This document shows, piece after piece, positions 1,045 to 40,583 of a stretch of DNA of 64,000 bases. Where the stretch lies: NCBI GenBank assembly GCA_963665275.2, contig CAXXIN010000007.1, forward strand, positions 352,001 through 416,000. Reading direction: 5' to 3'. A program made the position numbers and the translations under genes. Every line of letters begins with the position of its first letter. Position 1 is the first letter of the stretch. Source of the DNA: Negativicutes bacterium (GTDB lineage: Bacteria; Bacillota; Negativicutes; UBA1444). The notes beneath the pieces were generated by a model, which was given only the letters and a program-made list of their open reading frames with translations, was not told the DNA's origin and made no database searches.

Positions 1045-1857
1045 ATGGGAACATCAGCATCACATAACGGACCGAAGCCTGGCGTTTCATTTGACCCTTC
1101 GTGGTTAGATGACATTGATAATCCAGAGGCACCTACGGCACCTACGCAGAATCCTCAGACAGCACCTGCAGTGCCACTACTCGCCCCCTCGGCACGATTT
1201 GGGAGTGCTCGCCGCAGCATGGGCGATTACATAAGGAGCGGCAACCGAGAGTCTTTAACGAAATCGCTGGGACATTACTCGCGTACTGGTATGGGAGGTT
1301 CACGAAACGTAGCAAACCGTATGCGCCATTCCGCGAGTGTTGCATCCAAACTGTATTCATCATTTAGTTCACTTCGAGAGAGCAATGAACCCACAATAAG
1401 CAGCATCATCAGTAATTACAGGTCGGCAAATGTTGATGTGTATGGGCTAATTGACGCGATTGCAGAGTACATTTGCAGCGACGGAGGAAGTTTAGATGAG
1501 ACGTCCCCAAGAGATTCTGTTTCTTCGGCATTGAGTGACTTGTTTGACAAAAATCCCGATGTTGAATTAACTGCACTTTCAGACGATAGCGTTTGGTCAT
1601 TAGTTTCGTCTTTCCTCAGTTACGAAGCTTTCAGCAGAATTCAACTCGATATTGGCCAAGGGTTTGAAACAAAGGATATTTCTCTTACCGACCGCGTAAC
1701 GAGGCTTAACGATATGCGCGAGTATTTAGAGGCTGAAATTAGTTCTCAAATAGGAGTTATCCGTAACGAAATAGGAAACAAACCGCCGTCAGACCTACAC
1801 AAAGTTATGATGACAGCAATAGAAAGGACATTCAAAGTATTCGAGGTGACAGTATGA
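1045..1857 (+). CDS. qatB: Qat anti-phage system protein QatB
   Basis: N-terminus MGTSASHNGP...PSW after RBS GGAGG; RFGSARR and LGHYSRTGMGG motifs; located between qatA and the QueC-like gene. Confidence 0.88.
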   Translation: MGTSASHNGPKPGVSFDPSWLDDIDNPEAPTAPTQNPQTAPAVPLLAPSARFGSARRSMGDYIRSGNRESLTKSLGHYSRTGMGGSRNVANRMRHSASVASKLYSSFSSLRESNEPTISSIISNYRSANVDVYGLIDAIAEYICSDGGSLDETSPRDSVSSALSDLFDKNPDVELTALSDDSVWSLVSSFLSYEAFSRIQLDIGQGFETKDISLTDRVTRLNDMREYLEAEISSQIGVIRNEIGNKPPSDLHKVMMTAIERTFKVFEVTV

Positions 1858-14289: not shown

Positions 14290-14463
14290 GAATTTAGCTT
14301 TTGCGTATTTTTATGGGCTGCAAGAATTAACTTTCTTGCAGCCCATCTTTTTTCTTTTTTTATTTGGTTCATTATCAAAGGAATTACGTGGGGCGTGCAG
14401 AAATATGCAATAAGGATAACAGATCCAGATTATTTGCAAAGATAAGGGGTTGTAAAAATAACT

Positions 14464-34140: not shown

Positions 34141-35220
34141 ATGTTTGACAAATTCACTGAAATCGAAGTCTTGATTCGAGAAGCCAATTTCATTATGCGT
34201 ATCGCCTTTCTTCTTGTAAGCATGGCGGCTGGCGTTGCATTGAGCCAGTTGATCTTTGCCAGACTGCGCAAGGTGGTCGCCCGGGTTACCGACGGCTCTT
34301 ATCCTCTGGTGCAACGCGCTTTAAGAGGAATTCCCACGGTGTGGGGAATTCTCCTGGGGGGATACGTTGCAATCGAAATTCTCCCCCTCCATCCAAAGAT
34401 GCTGCAGTTCCTGGAAACATTATTTAACGCGATTGGCATCTTGTCCCTGACGATCATGGGCGCGCGACTGTTATCTGGTTTGCTCACCCAAAAGGTTCAA
34501 AAAACAGCCGGGACTTTTGCTTCCACTTCTATCCTGGTCACAACCATTGAATTGATTGTTTATATCACAGGCTCATTATTTTTGCTCCAGACCTTCGGGG
34601 TCTCGATCACGCCGTTGCTCACAGCTCTAGGCGTTGGTGGTTTGGCGGTAGCGCTCGCGCTGCAGGATACTCTGTCGAATTTATTTTCCGGCATCAATAT
34701 TCTGCTGTCCAAGCAAATCAAGATCAGCGACTATGTCAAACTGTCGACTGGTGAAGAAGGAACCGTTGTAGACATGAACTGGCGCAACACCACCATCAAA
34801 CTGCCGTCTGACAACATGGTTGTCGTTCCCAATCAAAAAATCGCGAGTTCCATCCTCACCAACTTTGCATTGCCTTATGCAGAGTGCTCCATCGTCATTC
34901 CGGTGGGAGTCAGTTATGACAGCGACCTGGAACAGGTCGAAAAAACCACCTCTGCTGTTGCCAAAGAAGTGCTTCAGGACACTGAGGGCGGTGTCGGCAG
35001 CTTTGAGCCGTTCATCCGCTATGGCAGTTTTGCTCCATCCAGCATCACCTTTAACGTCATCCTGCGTGTTAAAAGCGTGACGAATCAAGCCCTGATCCAA
35101 CACGAATTTATCAAGCGGCTTCACCTACGATATCGGCAGGAAGGAATCGAAATTCCCTTCCCCACAACTTCTGTGAGGCTTCAACAAACGACCCTTACAG
35201 ATGAAACAACCCCAAAATAA
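34141..35220 (+). CDS. Small-conductance mechanosensitive channel (MscS family)
   Basis: LGVGGLAVALALQDTLSNLFSG; EGTVVDMNWRNT; VVPNQ; GIEIPFP. Confidence 0.93.
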   Translation: MFDKFTEIEVLIREANFIMRIAFLLVSMAAGVALSQLIFARLRKVVARVTDGSYPLVQRALRGIPTVWGILLGGYVAIEILPLHPKMLQFLETLFNAIGILSLTIMGARLLSGLLTQKVQKTAGTFASTSILVTTIELIVYITGSLFLLQTFGVSITPLLTALGVGGLAVALALQDTLSNLFSGINILLSKQIKISDYVKLSTGEEGTVVDMNWRNTTIKLPSDNMVVVPNQKIASSILTNFALPYAECSIVIPVGVSYDSDLEQVEKTTSAVAKEVLQDTEGGVGSFEPFIRYGSFAPSSITFNVILRVKSVTNQALIQHEFIKRLHLRYRQEGIEIPFPTTSVRLQQTTLTDETTPK

Positions 35221-35230
35221 AATTATGGCG

Positions 35231-35270
35231 AAAAAAAACGAAGGGGAAGATTTTCATCTTCCCCTTTTTT
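35231..35270. terminator. Bidirectional terminator (mscS and convergent ncRNA)
   Basis: A-tract, AAGGGGAAGAT-TTTC-ATCTTCCCCTT, T-tract. Confidence 0.85.
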
Positions 35271-35271
35271 A

Positions 35272-35535
35272 AAGCGACCACCCTTACAGCTGAGGCTGGA
35301 TATCTTCACTTGCTATTCTGATAGGTCTTTAACCTCCATGGGAATTGCTTGGCTTTTGCTTCGTCCAGGTTTTGGGTATTAGGTTGTAGGTTTCGTGTCT
35401 TGCGGTTTGATCTCGGGGTATAGGGAAAACACTCTCCTTGATGGACTGGTTTCGACGTGTACAAACTCGGAAAGATTGATCTTTCGTGGGTTTGTCTTTT
35501 CGCTGGAACCTTAAGTCGCTGTAAGGATGGTGCTT
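35272..35535 (-). ncRNA. Unclassified stand-alone ncRNA candidate (~265 nt)
   Basis: Own promoter TTGCAA-17-TACAAT with TG extension; predicted +1 coincides with an 18-bp 5'/3' closing helix; terminator follows immediately; no credible ORF. Confidence 0.7.
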
Positions 35536-35541
35536 GACTAT

Positions 35542-35570
35542 ATTGTAGCACAGTAATCAGAATTTTGCAA
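35542..35570 (-). promoter_or_regulatory. SigA promoter of the ncRNA candidate
   Basis: -35 TTGCAA (35570-35565), 17-bp spacer, TGc-TACAAT (-10 at 35547-35542). Confidence 0.75.
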
Positions 35571-35601
35571 TAACTATTCAAGATATTTTCAATCGGCTTT
35601 A

Positions 35602-37809
35602 TTAGCCGTTCGGTCCACGGAAACGGACACGCAAATCTTGCGGCTGCAAGGTCTTGCCTGTCAGAACATTGAGTATCGTATTGGCCGTTGCGTTGGGCGT
35701 AATGATGAGATGAACCATTTCCCCTTCGGTCTCGCCTGTGCCTGACGCCAGTCCTCCCAACATGTTGAACTTCAGATTGGTGAATTCCGTCTGGCGTCCT
35801 CGTTTGGTAAAGTTTCCTGTCAAGCCGCTGAAAGCGATTCCCTTGACGCTGCCGGCATTCATCTTGAAGTTTCCATCACCGCTGGCTTTGTCCCAGTCGC
35901 CGACGCCAGCGATGGTCGCCGCAAAATCAGCACGCCCCTGCACATCACGATCCGTCAGTTGCGCCGCATCAATGTTCTGTCCAGTGAGCTGCTGCCGATA
36001 CTCCATCGTCTTCGGAACGACCGTCCCGTTCAGATTGATCGTGCCGCCGAGGCACTGAGCCCGCCCGCCCGCCAACGTAAGTAGCCCATCAACATAGCTG
36101 AATCCGGCGCTCGCACCGGAAAAAGCCAGTTGGCCCAATGCACCGGACGCGATCTGGAAGTTGCCGCGGGCCTGATTTTTTTCTGGAGTTCCTGTCACCG
36201 TTGCCTGAAAAGCAATCACTCCTTTTAACGCACTATTCGGATTGAATGCCGTTGCGTTGAGTCCAGAGGAGGATATGTTCAGGCTGACCTGGGGCGAAGC
36301 CCCACCTGCGGCCAAAGTGATCACCCCGTTGACCGAAAGACGTTGCCCTGACAAAGTTACGCCGACATTGGACAAATCCACACGGTTTCCTTGTTTATGA
36401 AAGCTGCCTGTTGCATTGGCAATGGTATAGTCGGAAATCGTTCCGGCCGGTACGGAAAAAGCACCACTCGCTGCCATAGTATCCGCACTTCCCTGCCCAG
36501 TAACGGTCGCATTGAAATCCATCCGGCCAGACAAGCCTTTATTCGTCAAAATCGATCCGTCAACATTCTGGCCGGATACATTCAGATTATAGGCTGAAGA
36601 TTTGGGCACTATGGTTCCGGTAATACCAACGGATCCGCCCAACGCTTTTGCATTTGAGTTGGATAACGTGAGTTTGCCGTCGGCATAGCCGAAAGAGCCC
36701 TCGGCGTCGGTTATTGGATTGGCGTCGAACTGACCGCTGGCCATATTGAAAGTCCCCTGCGCCGTCGGTTTGTCGAGCGTCCCGCCCACATCCGCGTGAA
36801 AGGAAGCAGCCCCGTTAAGCGACGCTTTCGGTCCTGCCAGTGAGGCTACATTCATCCCTGCGGAACTGATCTGCAACGCCAGAACTGGTGATGCCGGCGT
36901 GAAATCGATAGAGCCGGCCACGGAAAGTTTATTTCCGTCGACCACGGCAGCGGCATCCTGCAGGATAACCTTTTGTCCCTGCAGTTTCAGTATGGCGGTT
37001 CCCTCTTTGAGAGCCATTCCCTGCAAATCCATGCCTAAGCCGGACAGCATAGCCTCGCCTGTCATTTGGACACCAGACTTTTCCTGGGTCACATTCCCCT
37101 TAATATCCTTAAGCGTTCCGGCCAGCAACTTGGGGTTACCGGCTGCTACAGGCAACAATGCCTGCACTTCGCTGAGTTCTATCGCATCGATTTTCAAAGC
37201 CAATTGAGTTTTCCCCTCGGAAATCCAGTTTCCTTGGACTGAGATTGTGCTGTTCCCCATTTTCCCTTTCAAATCGACCGCTACGGCAGGTGGCGCTGCA
37301 TAATCCAGCTCGCCCGAAATTCCAGAGAATTCGCGTTTCCAGTTCGGTGTAGAGACAGCAACCGCTGCATCTTTCAGAACGACACTCCCACGAAACAGCG
37401 AGGGGCGCTCCGCCTGAGGTTTCACCATCTCCTGAAGGTTCCATTTGCCGGCTTTATCGATATTCAATACCAGGTTTAGTTTTTCAACAGTAATCTGCTT
37501 CACACTATCGATCCCAAAACGGCCCCCGAGGAGGTCACTGAACTTGTAACTGACACTGATCTCATCACTTTCGGCAATTTTCACGTTCTTCGAATCGAAT
37601 AGCACAACTTTTTTCAGCACCGCTGATCCCAAAGCGGAAAAATCAAAATTACCAATTTCAATGCGCCCATTAATGGAAGCGTTAACCTGCGATAGCAAGA
37701 GTCCCTGCACACCGGCGAGAACACGGGGAGCCACCATCTTCCAGGCAACACCCGCCGCAATCAGTAAAGCAACAGCACTTGCCAGTATGATTTTTTGTGT
37801 TTTGGACAT
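35602..37809 (-). CDS. AsmA-like (repeating beta-groove) envelope protein
   Basis: N-terminal TM anchor; KAGKWNLQEM; long Gly-rich amphipathic beta-strand repeats with an internal ~200-aa duplication. Confidence 0.75.
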   Translation of the reverse strand: MSKTQKIILASAVALLIAAGVAWKMVAPRVLAGVQGLLLSQVNASINGRIEIGNFDFSALGSAVLKKVVLFDSKNVKIAESDEISVSYKFSDLLGGRFGIDSVKQITVEKLNLVLNIDKAGKWNLQEMVKPQAERPSLFRGSVVLKDAAVAVSTPNWKREFSGISGELDYAAPPAVAVDLKGKMGNSTISVQGNWISEGKTQLALKIDAIELSEVQALLPVAAGNPKLLAGTLKDIKGNVTQEKSGVQMTGEAMLSGLGMDLQGMALKEGTAILKLQGQKVILQDAAAVVDGNKLSVAGSIDFTPASPVLALQISSAGMNVASLAGPKASLNGAASFHADVGGTLDKPTAQGTFNMASGQFDANPITDAEGSFGYADGKLTLSNSNAKALGGSVGITGTIVPKSSAYNLNVSGQNVDGSILTNKGLSGRMDFNATVTGQGSADTMAASGAFSVPAGTISDYTIANATGSFHKQGNRVDLSNVGVTLSGQRLSVNGVITLAAGGASPQVSLNISSSGLNATAFNPNSALKGVIAFQATVTGTPEKNQARGNFQIASGALGQLAFSGASAGFSYVDGLLTLAGGRAQCLGGTINLNGTVVPKTMEYRQQLTGQNIDAAQLTDRDVQGRADFAATIAGVGDWDKASGDGNFKMNAGSVKGIAFSGLTGNFTKRGRQTEFTNLKFNMLGGLASGTGETEGEMVHLIITPNATANTILNVLTGKTLQPQDLRVRFRGPNG

Positions 37810-37977
37810 ATGAAACACCTCCATTTGTTCATTTCGTGGTTACCGCTTCAAAATCCTCGCTGCATAACTCATATTGGCAATCTACCTGCAGATTCTCACG
37901 GGCTATATTAATGCTGCATTTCATTTCTATTGACCCTCCTGCTTCAATTTGATAGAATTATTTCAAATAAGATAACT

Positions 37978-38071
37978 ACAGGATCAGGCCGTCGGTAATA
38001 CCGGCGCGTCGGGCTAACAAGCAGCAGGTTATGCCTGTGGGACCTTTTAAAAGGTTTCGCGGGCATATTTT
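37978..38071 (+). promoter_or_regulatory. NiCo (czcD) riboswitch with terminator
   Basis: GATCAGGC...GTCGGGC...GCAGCA...TGTGGGAC conserved blocks; overlapping terminator; promoter TTGACC-17-TAGAAT upstream; precedes a CDF gene. Confidence 0.85.
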
Positions 38072-38132
38072 ATGTGTTGCAGGGGTTCTTTGACCGATAT
38101 CCACCCAAATTCAGTATATGAGGAGCATGGCA

Positions 38133-39035
38133 ATGCCGGATTCAACGCTGCAAAAAATCAAATGGGTATTGTGGGTCATCTTATTTGCCAATCTGGCGGT
38201 CGCGGGAGTAAAGATCGTCGTCGGGCAACTGATCCAAAGCGCCAGTCTCACGGCAGATGGCTTTCACTCTTTGACTGACGGAATCTCCAACATCGTCGGT
38301 CTTATCGGCATTCAATTTGCATCCCAACCAATTGACGAAAAACATCCCTATGGTCATCGCAAATATGAGTTTGTCACCGGCCTGTTCATCGGATTCATGC
38401 TGCTAATTATCGCCGCTCTTGTTCTTTACGAAGCCATTGATAAATTTGCGCATCCTGTTTCCCCTGACATTACGATCGTCAGCCTCATCGCATTGATTGC
38501 CACTCTCATCATTAATATTTTCGTTTGCCTCTACGAATATCGCCAGGGGCAGAAGCTGGGCAGCGCCATTTTGATTTCTGATTCCCTCCATACCCGCAGC
38601 GACGTCTTCGTTTCAATCAGCGTCTTATTCACCCTGTTAGGCATCAAATTCGGTCTGCCGCCAATCATCGATCCTATCGCCTCCCTGGTTGTCGCCGCTT
38701 TCATCATTCGCGCAGCCGTTGAAATCATTCGTTCCACCAGTGAAGTGCTCGTCGACAAGGCCGTCGCAGATACAGATACAATCCGTAATATTGCTCTCAC
38801 TTTTCCGGAGGTGCACGGCGTTCATGATATTCGAAGCCGTGGCACTGAACAGGATCTCTATATCGATATGCACGTTCTGATCGATCCCAATATGGAGGTC
38901 GGTGAGTCTCACAAACTTTGTCACGAGGTGGAGCAAAAAATCTGTCAGGAACTGCAAGTAAAAGCGCGTGTCATGATCCACATGGAGCCTTTTCGCAAAC
39001 ACACTCCTGCTCACCATGGAAACCCGCAGACATAA
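38133..39035 (+). CDS. Cation diffusion facilitator (FieF/CzcD-like)
   Basis: ADGFHSLTD, HPYGHRKYE, DSLHTRSD and IHMEP motifs. Confidence 0.93.
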   Translation: MPDSTLQKIKWVLWVILFANLAVAGVKIVVGQLIQSASLTADGFHSLTDGISNIVGLIGIQFASQPIDEKHPYGHRKYEFVTGLFIGFMLLIIAALVLYEAIDKFAHPVSPDITIVSLIALIATLIINIFVCLYEYRQGQKLGSAILISDSLHTRSDVFVSISVLFTLLGIKFGLPPIIDPIASLVVAAFIIRAAVEIIRSTSEVLVDKAVADTDTIRNIALTFPEVHGVHDIRSRGTEQDLYIDMHVLIDPNMEVGESHKLCHEVEQKICQELQVKARVMIHMEPFRKHTPAHHGNPQT

Positions 39036-39090
39036 TTCAAAGTTTGACAGCAGGGAAAAAATTTGTTATTCTTTTTTCAATCGAATAGCA

Positions 39091-39190
39091 CGATATGGAA
39101 CTGACGGATAAGTGGAATTAACCACATGAACTGTATCGGAAGGATAGTCGACCGTCTGGGCAACATTTTTGTTTGCGCAGACGGTTTTTT
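39091..39190 (+). promoter_or_regulatory. ZMP/ZTP (pfl) riboswitch 1 with terminator
   Basis: CGATATGG-AACTGACGGA..GTGGA..ACCAC..CTGTATCG...GTCGACCGTCTGGGCA, then CAGACGGTTTTTT. Confidence 0.88.
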
Positions 39191-39212
39191 GTTTGCCAAA
39201 ATTAAATCAGTA

Positions 39213-39314
39213 CGATACAGAACTGGCGGATAAAGTGGATCAAACCACGTGGGACTGTATCGGGGAACAAGCCGACCGCCTGGGCAACATGCGTTTGTTC
39301 AGGCGGCTATTTTT
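39213..39314 (+). promoter_or_regulatory. ZMP/ZTP (pfl) riboswitch 2 with terminator
   Basis: CGATACAG-AACTGGCGGA..GTGGA..ACCAC..CTGTATCG...GCCGACCGCCTGGGCA, then CAGGCGGCTATTTTT. Confidence 0.9.
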
Positions 39315-39359
39315 ATGCTGCCGGGTAACGCAAAAAACGAAAAGGGAGCGTGCTCGACA

Positions 39360-40583
39360 ATGAAAAACAGGTGGCTCATCGCATCTTCCGCAGTCGGAAT
39401 CCATATCTGCATCGGCAGCGTATACGCCTGGAGCGTACTGACCAAACCGATCATGTTGCACCTCGGGATCAGTCTCAAGGAAACCCAGTGGACATTTTCG
39501 CTGGCAATTTTGTTTCTGGGCCTTTCTGCTGCATTCTTGGGTGGGTGGGTCGAAAAATACGGCCCCCGAAAATCCGGTCTTGCTGCCACAATGTTCTTCT
39601 GCGCCGGCATGTTCGGAACTGCCCTGGCAGTCTATATGAAGAGTTTGCCGTTGCTATATCTTTTTTATGGCGCCATTGGCGGCATTGGTCTCGGTATTGG
39701 TTACATCACGCCGGTATCCACGCTGGTGAAGTGGTTCCCGGAAAAACGGGGATTTGCGACCGGCATTGCCATCATGGGCTTCGGCTTGGCCAGTCTCGTT
39801 GCCGGCCCGCTCATTCAATTCCTGTTGCAACAATATGGTCTGATCACAACCTTCGTGACTCTTGGCTTGCTTTATATGATGATCATGATTCCTTCCTCCC
39901 TGTATCTGGCCCCACCCCTGAAAACATGCATTATTGAAACTGAGGCCTCACTGCGGCACTCTCTCGCCGGAGTAACGCAGGTTACGGCCACTGCTGCCAT
40001 GAAAACCTGGCAATTTTGGACCTTGTGGTGGATGTTATTCACGAACATCACCTGTGGAATTGGCCTGCTCAGTGTTGCCTCCCCCATGGCCCAGGAAACG
40101 GTTGGCATGTCGCCGCTGATGGCCGCGACGATGGTTGGAGTCATCGGGTTCGTCAACGGGGCCGGGCGTCTTTTTTGGGCATCCATTTCTGATTACCTTG
40201 GCCGGGCAAATACCTATATCGCTTTTTTCATCATTCAGGGTTTCGCCTTCCTGCTACTGGCCAAAACGACAGATGGCATGTTGTTTCAGTTTTTGGTCTA
40301 CCTGATCATCTCCTGTTATGGCGGAGGTTTTTCCACAATCCCCGCTTTTTTGAGCGACCTATTTGGCACTAAAGAGCTGAGTGCCATTCATGGGAAAATA
40401 TTAACCGCCTGGGCGGCCGCGGGAGTCGTTGGTCCCTTGTTTGTTGCCTGGATCAAAGATACGACGAATAGTTACAATGCCACGCTGCTAGTTTTTTCCC
40501 TGTGCTTTGTAATTTCGCTGGTAGTCGCCACGGTTCTGAGATTAAAACAGCCTGCAACAACAGCCAGCGAGCTCTCTCTTTAG
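39360..40583 (+). CDS. OFA-family MFS transporter (oxalate/formate antiporter-like)
   Basis: KNRWLIA..GIHICIGSVYAWS; PVSTLVKWFPEKRGFATG; FGTKELSAIHGKILTAW. Confidence 0.92.
   Translation: MKNRWLIASSAVGIHICIGSVYAWSVLTKPIMLHLGISLKETQWTFSLAILFLGLSAAFLGGWVEKYGPRKSGLAATMFFCAGMFGTALAVYMKSLPLLYLFYGAIGGIGLGIGYITPVSTLVKWFPEKRGFATGIAIMGFGLASLVAGPLIQFLLQQYGLITTFVTLGLLYMMIMIPSSLYLAPPLKTCIIETEASLRHSLAGVTQVTATAAMKTWQFWTLWWMLFTNITCGIGLLSVASPMAQETVGMSPLMAATMVGVIGFVNGAGRLFWASISDYLGRANTYIAFFIIQGFAFLLLAKTTDGMLFQFLVYLIISCYGGGFSTIPAFLSDLFGTKELSAIHGKILTAWAAAGVVGPLFVAWIKDTTNSYNATLLVFSLCFVISLVVATVLRLKQPATTASELSL

What the first reader, a model, noticed from the sequence alone, without database searches (positions are those of the whole stretch)
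35231..35570. Stand-alone ~265-nt ncRNA candidate with a closing helix and repeated single-stranded ANACC motifs
Seen on the minus strand: promoter TTGCAA-17-TACAAT with TG extension places +1 at about 35535, the first base of AAGC-ACCAUCCUUACAGC. This pairs with GCUGUAAGGGUGGU-C-GCUU (18 bp, one G-U, one bulge), directly followed by a terminator. The interior has a hairpin (ACAAAC..GAAAGAU/AUCUUUC..GUUUGU) and a GUCCA/UGGAC stem closing a large A/C-rich loop. AAACC occurs 5 times (plus-strand GGTTT at 35368, 35389, 35404, 35448, 35489), plus AUACC twice, CAACC and AGACC. Two SD-like words (AAGGAG, GGAGGU) lack properly spaced start codons. It has no downstream gene, so it is not a leader, and it lacks SRP, RNase P, tmRNA and typical 6S signatures. 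Inference: an undescribed trans-acting RNA, plausibly a CsrB/CrcZ-style protein sponge for an ACC-binding protein. Caveat: the G/U-rich plus strand can also fold with many G-U pairs, but it has no promoter or terminator.
Basis: partly seen in the sequence, partly recalled or inferred. Interest (0 to 1): 0.8.

Follow-up and report, generated by a model that had tools for sequence, protein, structure and literature searches.

The report
New widespread Bacillota non-coding RNA
This is a real stand-alone gene for a structured RNA of about 265 bases that matches no catalogued RNA family, recurs in hundreds of anaerobic Bacillota species, and has no known function.

Summary
On the minus strand an extended -10 promoter (35570-35542) puts +1 at 35535. 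An 18-bp terminal helix joins bases 1-18 to 246-264, and an intrinsic terminator follows (35266-35231). Rfam gives no match for the window copy or for 20 homologues. The genome has its own 6S and SRP RNAs elsewhere.

The gene belongs to a large family. A covariance model of the 5' domain found it in 61 of 151 Negativicutes genomes, 44 of 151 genomes in the class of a Pelotomaculum genome, and 3 of 3 in a small third class. Members carry their own promoter and a terminator-like hairpin, and share no conserved neighbour or reading frame. Metatranscriptome contigs from three studies lie on it.

The conserved core is the almost sequence-invariant terminal helix, a long 5' hairpin and a GUGUUUUUU strand. 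The A/C-rich "ANACC" stretch falls in a hypervariable linker. It is A/C-rich only in the window's own family, G/U-rich elsewhere, and sometimes made of tandem heptamers. An ACC-binding sponge is therefore not a family property.

The function is unknown. My best guess is a stable protein-binding scaffold RNA with a lineage-specific single-stranded linker.

The parts
35542..35570 (-). Promoter: -35 TTGCAA (35570-35565), 17-nt spacer, TG-extended -10 TGcTACAAT (35550-35542)
   Evidence: scan and sequence. In the homologues a TANNNT hexamer lies 4-7 nt upstream of the first base in 50 of 50 and has a TG extension in 43 of 50.
35233..35535 (-). Whole predicted transcript. The core of about 264 nt runs to the end of the closing helix (35272), followed by the terminator. 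The 3' end is inferred.
   Evidence: Metatranscriptome contigs from 3 studies lie on 35271-35520.
35518..35535 (-). P1 5' strand, AAGCACCAUCCUUACAGC (RNA 1-18)
   Evidence: Paired in the minimum-energy fold. Nearly invariant in 30 aligned members. The helix is kept in 44 distinct variants.
35444..35517 (-). 5' long hairpin domain (RNA 19-92). P2 is GACU/AGUC, P2b is GGUU/AACC, P3 is ACAAAC/GUUUGU, and P4 is GAAAGA/UCUUUC with loop UCAA.
   Evidence: Fold. Single-sequence folds recover a similar long hairpin in most members.
35426..35439 (-). Conserved single-stranded motif AAGGAGAGUGUUUU (RNA 97-110). The family form is GG(R)NNGUGUUUUUUG.
   Evidence: Invariant G104 U105 G106 and U-run in alignments A1 and A2. 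Mostly unpaired.
35344..35425 (-). Hypervariable A/C-rich, G-poor linker (RNA about 111-192) holding three of the five AAACC words
   Evidence: The segment I cut as variable is 77% A+C. A slightly different cut has 14% G and 34% C, with mean predicted pairing probability 0.32 against 0.68 for the segment 5' of it. It cannot be aligned outside the family.
35291..35343 (-). 3' domain (RNA about 193-245) with GGAGGUUA (35337-35330) and ..CUAUC..; the structure is not resolved
   Evidence: GGAGG..AUC is conserved within the window's family. Other lineages carry a different motif, AGGUUGUUUGAGAUUGUC-like.
35272..35290 (-). P1 3' strand, GCUGUAAGGGUGGU-C-GCUU (RNA 246-264), with bulged C260
35231..35266 (-). 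Intrinsic terminator: 11-bp stem, 4-nt loop, then CGUUUUUUUU
   Evidence: A hairpin of -14 kcal/mol or better follows P1 in 46 of 50 homologues.

Best explanation
SHOWN. 35535-35233 on the minus strand is an independently transcribed, non-coding, structured RNA gene. It is one copy of a large family that is not in Rfam. The family occurs in Negativicutes, in the class that holds Pelotomaculum, and in at least one further small Bacillota class.

The shared architecture is:
- a TG-extended sigma-A-type promoter;
- a 17-18-bp terminal helix (P1) that pairs the first bases of the transcript with its 3' end and is almost invariant in sequence (GCACCAUCC / GGAUGGUGC core);
- a roughly 75-nt hairpin domain (P2-P4);
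- a conserved single strand, GG..GUGUUUUUUG;
- a hypervariable low-complexity linker in a variable segment of about 30-240 nt, as I cut it;
- a lineage-specific 3' domain;
- a terminator.

INFERRED, and the weaker part. The RNA acts in trans as a stable, abundant, protein-bound scaffold or sequestering RNA. The closed 5'/3' helix would protect the ends and, with the 5' hairpin and U-rich strand, form the recognition core for an unknown partner. The linker would be kept single-stranded by being poor in either G (the window's family) or C (most others). It would serve as a tether or landing pad whose sequence is free to drift or is re-tuned in each lineage. On this reading the ANACC words are a by-product of the A/C-rich composition in one family.
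For: Transcription unit:
- Promoter and terminator are in place.
- A -10 hexamer is present in 50 of 50 homologues, a TG extension in 43 of 50, and a strong hairpin after P1 in 46 of 50.
- The gene neighbourhood differs between lineages, and no neighbour cluster is shared by more than 4 of 20 loci.

Not coding:
- The longest sense reading frame has a median of 34 aa, and frames and starts differ even within the genus.
- The 91-aa frame has no Pfam hit.

Not a known RNA:
- No Rfam match at gathering score and none up to E = 10 apart from terminator-like noise.
- Nothing lies on the RNA in 20 homologous loci at E <= 5.
- 6S RNA (111 bits) and SRP RNA lie elsewhere in the genome.

Distribution:
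- 17 of 41 relatives by DNA search, including 12 of 12 in the window's family.
- With model R1, 61 of 151 in the class, 44 of 151 in the class of G151, and 3 of 3 in the class of G180.
- 7 of 151 in an even sample of the phylum.
- Named carriers come from record titles.

Structure:
- P1 is kept in 44 distinct sequence variants, with compensatory changes at positions 2, 12 and 15 and a paired deletion.
- In the model-fitted alignment of the 5' hairpin, 82.1% of cells pair against 72.6% in shuffles, 21 of 22 pairs show double changes, and 0 of 500 shuffles reach this. Slid controls give 28-53%.
- P4 is built from different sequences in different lineages.

Linker:
- Composition flips between lineages.
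- Predicted pairing is lower in the linker than in the segment 5' of it, 0.55 against 0.69 on average and 0.32 against 0.68 in the window copy.

Expression:
- RNA-library contigs from 3 studies lie on 35271-35520 with summed word depths up to thousands.
Against: - No partner protein has been identified. HutP does not track the RNA. Hfq is near-universal in the class, so its presence says nothing. TROVE/Ro was found in 0 of 5 carriers.
- Covariation in the 5' hairpin is weak on the sequence-only MAFFT alignment. Pairing is 78.9% against 74.9%, but 70 of 500 shuffles reach the covariation score and 202 of 500 reach the number of pairs with double changes. The strong figures come from an alignment fitted to the model.
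- RNAalifold on 12 members of the window's family prefers a partly different pairing for GGU 26-28.
- P1 is so conserved in sequence that most of its pairs never vary. This says little about structure and could equally mean that its strands act by base-pairing with something else.
- Contigs cannot show transcript ends, strand or level.
- The mechanism is inference from architecture alone.
Confidence: 0.45

Rival explanations
1. One reading: a CsrB/CrcZ-style sponge that titrates a protein recognising single-stranded ANACC words.
For: AAACC (5 against 1.0 expected) and A.ACC (8 against 2.5) are enriched in the window copy. The 12 other members of the window's family listed carry 1-5 AAACC. The linker is predicted to be largely unpaired.
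Against: Rows outside that family have 0-1 AAACC, and their linkers are G/U-rich. Two of the five words lie in conserved helices. The positions of the words are not conserved within the family alignment. It could still be a family-specific add-on.
Confidence: 0.1
2. A base-pairing trans-acting sRNA. The conserved single strand (GG..GUGUUUUUUG), or the C-rich UACCCC that follows it in the window's family, is a seed that pairs with mRNAs. Alternatively P1 opens and its invariant strands pair with a conserved target.
For: The single-stranded motif is invariant. Hfq is present in 5 of 5 carriers tested and in 124 of 151 genomes of the class. Sequence conservation of P1 goes beyond what pairing alone needs.
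Against: No further sites like or complementary to the P1 strands or the motif stand out in the window's own genome at up to 2 mismatches. A U-rich seed pairs weakly. The size and closed-end architecture are unusual for seed-type sRNAs. I made no target prediction.
Confidence: 0.15
3. A 6S- or Ms1-like RNA that binds RNA polymerase.
For: Closed terminal helix, high apparent abundance in metatranscriptome contigs, a housekeeping-type promoter, and one locus where it sits about 250 nt from the 6S gene.
Against: No 6S model match at E <= 10. A canonical 6S RNA is present in the same genome. The fold is not a rod with a central bubble.
Confidence: 0.07
4. In lineages with heptamer arrays the linker is a decoy for a ring-shaped protein that reads NAG triplets with 4-nt spacers, as HutP does (HutP site spacing is recalled from the literature, not checked here).
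For: Period-7 arrays occur in 4 lineages, with units mostly containing AAG and up to 10.9 copies. HutP-family genes are present in 5 of 5 carriers tested, including G227 and G180, which have the arrays.
Against: HutP does not track the RNA across the class. One family has HutP in 20 of 21 genomes and the RNA in 0 of 21. Another has HutP in 1 of 7 and the RNA in 6 of 7. Repeat units differ between lineages and some lack AAG, for example UGUUUUU. The window copy has no array. Replication slippage in an unconstrained spacer explains the arrays as well.
Confidence: 0.06
5. Not an RNA gene: a 3' UTR, a leader, a small protein gene, a mobile-element remnant or a chance fold.
For: The plus strand also folds well. 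A 91-aa frame overlaps the region.
Against: It has its own promoter and terminator across 50 homologues. Flanking genes differ. There is no conserved frame, no phage or plasmid match, and a single copy in the window's genome.
Confidence: 0.02

Closest known systems
6S RNA (SsrS, RF00013) and Ms1
   Same: A stand-alone, abundant, stable RNA whose 5' and 3' ends form a closing helix. It acts, or is proposed to act, by binding a protein rather than by coding.
   Different: No model match. The genome has a separate canonical 6S RNA. There is no rod with a central bubble. It carries a hypervariable linker that 6S lacks.
CsrB/RsmZ and CrcZ protein-sponge RNAs
   Same: A trans-acting RNA with repeated short words in a region predicted to be single-stranded (window copy only). 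Some relatives carry true tandem arrays.
   Different: The repeated word is not conserved across the family. There are only two GGA-containing words and they are not in hairpin loops. The conserved part is a structured core, not the repeats.
Y RNA / YrlA (Ro60/Rsr partner)
   Same: A terminal helix formed by the 5' and 3' ends, conserved in sequence and carrying a bulge.
   Different: No TROVE/Rsr gene in 0 of 5 carrier genomes. The bulge base varies and is missing in one subfamily. No Rfam Y RNA match.
Orphan large structured RNAs of Bacillota (raiA motif, OLE, ROOL)
   Same: A widespread, conserved, independently transcribed structured RNA of unknown function in Bacillota. The distribution overlaps partly with spore formers.
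   Different: No match to those Rfam models. It is smaller and less ornate, and a large part of its length is unconserved low-complexity sequence.

Membership tests
6S RNA (RF00013) | Match to the 6S covariance model | tested here: not met
   No 6S hit on the region at E <= 10, nor on the RNA in 20 homologous loci at E <= 5. The model does find the genome's real 6S RNA at 111.4 bits on another contig.
6S RNA (RF00013) | Rod-like fold with a large central bubble flanked by helices | tested here: not met
   The minimum-energy and centroid folds show a terminal helix enclosing a multi-domain interior.
CsrB/RsmZ-type CsrA sponge | Many GGA motifs, mostly in hairpin loops | tested here: not met
   Two GGA-containing words (AAGGAG, GGAGG) in the window copy. 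The P1 3' strand of the window reads AAGGGUGG, without GGA. CsrA is present in 5 of 5 carriers tested, but its distribution across the class was not examined.
CrcZ-type Hfq/Crc sponge | Repeated A-rich CA motifs conserved among orthologues (feature recalled from the literature) | tested here: not met
   ANACC words are enriched only in the window's family and number 0-1 elsewhere. Hfq is near-universal in the class, so its presence says nothing.
Y RNA / YrlA | A Ro60/Rsr (TROVE) protein encoded in the genome | tested here: not met
   PF05731 was found in 0 of 5 carrier genomes. The control search found it in Deinococcus and Bacteroides.
SRP RNA, RNase P RNA, tmRNA | Match to the Rfam model | tested here: not met
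   No such hit in the region. SRP RNA lies on another contig. I did not locate RNase P RNA or tmRNA elsewhere in the genome.
raiA motif, OLE, ROOL and other curated orphan RNAs | Match to the Rfam model | tested here: not met
   All 4227 Rfam 15 families were searched. Nothing fell on the RNA in the window or in 20 homologues.
Type III toxin-antitoxin RNA (ToxI-like) | Tandem repeats of about 36 nt followed by a toxin gene (feature recalled from the literature) | tested here: not met
   The window copy has no tandem array and no co-oriented downstream gene. One relative (L166) has 5.1 copies of a 37-nt unit inside the linker; its neighbourhood was not examined.
Riboswitch or leader (cis-regulatory) | A co-oriented gene downstream within the same transcription unit | tested here: not met
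   A terminator follows directly and the next gene converges. Downstream genes differ between lineages.

The most novel reading that the evidence does not exclude
The family is a modular "display" RNA. An ancient, nearly invariant structured chassis (terminal helix, 5' hairpin and U-rich strand) presents a fast-evolving single-stranded cassette. Each lineage re-tunes this cassette by composition switches and by expansion of short tandem repeats, often heptamers, to titrate or recruit a single-strand-binding factor. Paralogous copies with different cassettes, such as the four in Sporomusa silvacetica, would give one cell several specificities. A further possibility is that the self-complementary UUGCAA pair in P3 lets the RNA swap domains and form homo-oligomers, as other orphan Bacillota RNAs do.
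Probability: 0.15. Interest if true: 0.8.

Novelty: categorically new. Interest (0 to 1): 0.62.

Why it matters
New RNA classes of this size and spread are rare. This one occurs in roughly a third of the sampled genomes in two Bacillota classes, including cultivable acetogens and syntrophs (Sporomusa, Pelosinus, Lucifera, Pelotomaculum). It appears to be abundant in sediment and wastewater metatranscriptomes.

The pairing of an almost sequence-invariant core with a hypervariable linker that sometimes consists of tandem repeats is unusual among bacterial RNAs. It makes direct experiments possible, such as pull-down, deletion and linker swaps in cultured carriers.

It would also close an annotation gap, since these loci are currently read as empty intergenic DNA.

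Tried and rejected
**Partner proteins by co-occurrence**
- HutP (PF09021) is in 96 of 151 class genomes but does not follow the RNA.
- Hfq is in 124 of 151, near-universal, so it says nothing.
- TRAP (PF02081) is in 2 of 5 carriers.
- TROVE is in 0 of 5.
- CsrA is in 5 of 5 carriers tested; its class-wide distribution was not examined.

**Link to sporulation**
- SpoIVA (PF09547) is in 53 of 151 genomes and overlaps the RNA only partly.
- Three families carry the RNA without SpoIVA. They are the window's own family (RNA 12 of 12, SpoIVA 0 of 12) and two others (each RNA 2 of 2, SpoIVA 0 of 2).
- Several families have SpoIVA with little or no RNA.
- I rejected this as a functional tie.

**Other checks that led nowhere**
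- Conserved neighbour genes: none.
- Extra copies or target-like sites of the conserved strands in the window's own genome: none convincing.
- Phage or plasmid origin: no match.
- RNAalifold recovered only P1 on the 30-member full-length alignment. On 12 members of the window's family it gave a partly different interior pairing. The 3' domain remains unresolved.
- The resemblance of the P1 strands to the anti-Shine-Dalgarno and Shine-Dalgarno sequences, and to the SELEX CsrA site, is recalled from memory. I treat it as coincidence, because the window copy lacks GGA there.

**Literature**
- Six searches and term look-ups in four papers found no description of this RNA. The papers were PMC8632094, PMC6429828, PMC11109978 and PMC12456013.
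- In these papers I saw only matching passages.
- Supplements were closed. Motif lists and TSS or Term-seq tables there could hold it.

**Read laying**
- No contig covered 35150-35268 or 35524-35650 in the four RNA runs.
- Runs with small shares that I did not lay (X3, X5, X6, X8-X19) are not used.

**Repeated sample**
- Searches drew the same phylum sample as and added nothing.

Full report
**What is in the window**

Read on the minus strand, the interval 35570-35231 holds:
- a sigma-70-type promoter, TTGCAA-17-TACAAT, with a TG extension;
- a start at the A of AAGCACC (35535);
- an 11-bp GC-rich hairpin followed by CGUUUUUUUU (35266-35231).

The 305-nt transcript folds to -83.3 kcal/mol. Shuffles average -57.7, so z = -5.45, and 0 of 100 shuffles fold as well. 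Bases 1-18 pair with bases 246-264 through 18 base pairs, one U-G pair and one bulged C.

The upstream gene on the same strand (35602-37824) is a 740-aa protein with a sub-threshold DUF748 match. The gene beyond the terminator is a convergent MscS-type channel. The RNA therefore has no downstream gene to regulate.

The plus strand also folds well (z = -4.40). It carries only weak promoter-like matches and no terminator.

**It is not a catalogued RNA**

- Rfam 15 (4227 families) gives three matches in the window, all elsewhere: two ZTP riboswitches and one NiCo riboswitch.
- A permissive scan of 35150-35650 up to E = 10 returns only weak matches. The strongest centre on the terminator hairpin (sraA, SR6 antitoxin, P31). 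All are far below their gathering scores.
- The genome has a canonical 6S RNA (111.4 bits) and an SRP RNA on other contigs.
- A scan of 20 homologous loci at E <= 5 puts nothing on the RNA.

**It is one member of a large family**

A DNA search of 41 related genomes matched 17. These included 11 of 11 in the genus and 1 of 1 in the other genus of the family. In four genomes of three other families only the 5' end matched.

Inspection showed that those four have the same layout: promoter, AAGCACCAUCCUUAYA..GAC..GUGUUUUUUG.., a variable stretch, UGUAAGGAUGGUUGCUU and a terminator.

- 11 loci passed my strict two-halves test.
- 9 more, picked by title, proved full-length on inspection, and 2 were cut by the locus end.
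- The rest I took to be chance matches in coding DNA.

The titles of the true hits name the following:
- Pelosinus, including P. baikalensis;
- Sporomusa silvacetica DSM 10669;
- Lucifera butyrica;
- Sporomusaceae, Selenomonadales, "Veillonellaceae" and Negativicutes MAGs;
- several Pelotomaculum MAGs;
- Candidatus Syntrophopropionicum ammoniitolerans;
- unclassified Bacillota MAGs.

NCBI places Pelosinus in Negativicutes and Pelotomaculum in Clostridia, family Desulfotomaculaceae.

I built a covariance model of the 5' domain (R1: 112 positions, 22 pairs) from a 30-sequence alignment. Before aligning I dropped duplicates, the two truncated loci, one member of about 395 nt and one that my pattern missed. 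The model found the RNA in:

| Group searched | Genomes with a match |
|---|---|
| The window's class | 61 of 151 |
| Class of the Pelotomaculum genome G151 | 44 of 151 |
| Small class of G180 | 3 of 3 |
| Even sample of the whole phylum | 7 of 151 |

Searches drew the same phylum sample.

Within the class the pattern is close to all-or-none by family.
- Families with the RNA: 12/12, 13/15, 4/4, 4/4, 6/8 and 6/7.
- Families without it: 0/10, 0/22, 0/21 and 0/9. These have mostly small genomes.

Most genomes hold one copy. Pelosinus baikalensis has two and Sporomusa silvacetica has four.

**Each copy is its own transcription unit and does not code**

Among 50 distinct members:
- all have a TANNNT hexamer 4-7 nt upstream of the first base;
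- 43 have the TG extension;
- 25 have a recognisable -35 hexamer;
- 46 have a hairpin of -14 kcal/mol or better just after P1. For the other four my 3' limits were only approximate.

No flanking gene cluster is shared by more than 4 of 20 loci. The longest sense reading frames have a median of 34 aa and differ in frame and start even within the genus. There is no match in phage or plasmid collections.

**Architecture and support**

P1 is nearly invariant in sequence. In the 30-member alignment most pairs never change.

Across 44 distinct variants the helix is always kept. The changes seen are:
- C15-G to U-A;
- A2-U to G-C;
- U12-A or U12-G to C-G;
- a paired deletion, GCAC-AUCC with GGAU-GUGC.

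The bulged base varies and is missing in one subfamily.

The 5' domain is a long hairpin made of P2 (GACU/AGUC), P2b (GGUU/AACC), P3 (often two copies of the self-complementary UUGCAA) and P4. Single-sequence folds recover a similar long hairpin in most members. P4 is built from different sequences in different lineages: GAAAGA/UCUUUC, GGAAAU/AUUUCC, UCGGA/UUCGA and CUGAA/UUCGG.

Pair counts depend on the alignment used.

| Measure | Model-fitted alignment, 51 distinct rows | MAFFT alignment, 30 rows |
|---|---|---|
| Cells paired, observed against shuffled | 82.1% against 72.6% (0 of 500 shuffles reach it) | 78.9% against 74.9% (0 of 500) |
| Pairs with changes on both sides | 21 of 22 (0 of 500 shuffles reach it) | 10 of 22 (202 of 500 shuffles reach it) |
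| Covariation score | 0 of 500 shuffles reach it | 70 of 500 shuffles reach it |
| Cells paired in slid controls | 28-53% | 31-51% |

I read this as good support for the helices existing, but as modest independent covariation.

After the hairpin comes the invariant single strand GG..GUGUUUUUUG. The 3' domain has motifs specific to each lineage, and I could not resolve its fold.

**The A/C-rich "ANACC" segment is a hypervariable linker**

Three findings count against treating them as a functional array:
- Two of the five lie in helices P3 and P2b.
- The proposed GUCCA/UGGAC stem exists in 1 of 13 members of the window's family.
- AAACC is found 1-5 times per member in the window's family and 0-1 times elsewhere.

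The segment between the U-rich strand and the 3' domain ranges from about 30 to about 240 nt as I cut it. It is 61-77% A+C in the window's family and 48-83% G+U in the others. Either C or G is depleted: the median of the smaller share is 0.13, and it is 0.12 or less in 22 of 50 members.

In 9 of 50 members the linker contains a tandem array of about 3 or more copies. Arrays of period 7 occur in four separate lineages, with units CAAGUAC, UGUUUUU, AAGUUUC, AAGUUAG, AAGGUAA and AGAAGUA. One member has a 37-nt unit repeated 5.1 times.

Predicted pairing is lower in the linker than in the segment 5' of it (0.55 against 0.69 overall; 0.32 against 0.68 in the window copy). The simplest reading is a spacer selected to stay single-stranded, whose sequence is otherwise free to change.

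**Expression**

Fourteen RNA-library runs held part of the stretch. I laid contigs of four runs from three studies. They lie on 35271-35520, at 90-99% or more identity, with summed word depths from about 2 to several thousand. Several are clearly from close relatives, because they diverge from the window in the linker. Contigs cannot give ends, strand or level.

**Function**

Nothing here shows what the RNA does. The candidate partners I tested were either uninformative or rejected. The overlap with the sporulation marker SpoIVA is only partial.

From the architecture I favour a stable, protein-bound scaffold or sequestering RNA. The features behind this are the ends locked in a helix, a housekeeping-type promoter, an invariant core and a free linker. 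Base-pairing through the U-rich strand is the main rival. The report sections give odds and refuting results for each.

**Novelty**

No Rfam family and no paper I could search describes this RNA. I therefore rate it a new RNA class, with function unknown.

Noticed in passing
window 39087-39168 and 39209-39292 (+): Two ZTP riboswitch aptamers in tandem (54.5 and 65 bits) lie directly upstream of, and overlap the called start of, an MFS transporter reading frame (39249-40583). This is an unusual gene for this riboswitch class. The same tandem pair sits next to the RNA gene in the other genus of the family (L013 1740-1944).
   Followed up: partly
window 37970-38047 (+): A NiCo riboswitch at its gathering score (37.1 against 37 bits) lies upstream of a cation-efflux (CDF) gene at 38118-39035. 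This is the expected pairing.
   Followed up: partly
L016 1090-1263 (-), next to the RNA at 1518-1737 (+): In one Negativicutes genome the canonical 6S RNA gene (62.5 bits) lies about 250 nt from this RNA gene and is transcribed divergently.
   Followed up: no
G124:C1 783448-783840 with RNA at 785254; G140:C56 2665-3057 with RNA at 1136-1245; G099:C64 9371-9763 with RNA at 14414: In one genus a second-type HutP paralogue lies 1.4-4.7 kb from one copy of the RNA on the same strand. This is not seen in the window, where the paralogue is about 110 kb away on the contig.
   Followed up: no
G155 (Sporomusa silvacetica) C1: 1403534, 4779460, 5286791, 5304941: This genome has four copies of the RNA. 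Two score identically and lie 18 kb apart. The copy at 1403534 has a different linker but shares the 3' motif with the two 18-kb-apart copies (the fourth was not compared).
   Followed up: partly
L166, RNA positions 147-336: The linker of this member is 5.1 tandem copies of a 37-nt unit (90% matches), the size class of type III antitoxin repeats. Its neighbourhood was not examined.
   Followed up: no
L185/L186 (G180:C24 37321-37988): Two diverged copies of the RNA gene lie in tandem about 570 nt apart, each with its own promoter and terminator. One carries two heptamer arrays. This genome and G227 also encode TRAP (PF02081).
   Followed up: partly
whole genomes of the window's family: SpoIVA was found in 0 of 12 relatives in the family and not in the window's genome (92.6% complete). 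Most other RNA-bearing families of the class have it. The lineage looks non-sporulating.
   Followed up: no
window 35602-37824 (-): The 740-aa protein upstream of the RNA matches DUF748 (AsmA-like) only below the Pfam cut-off (33.7 against 50 bits).
   Followed up: no
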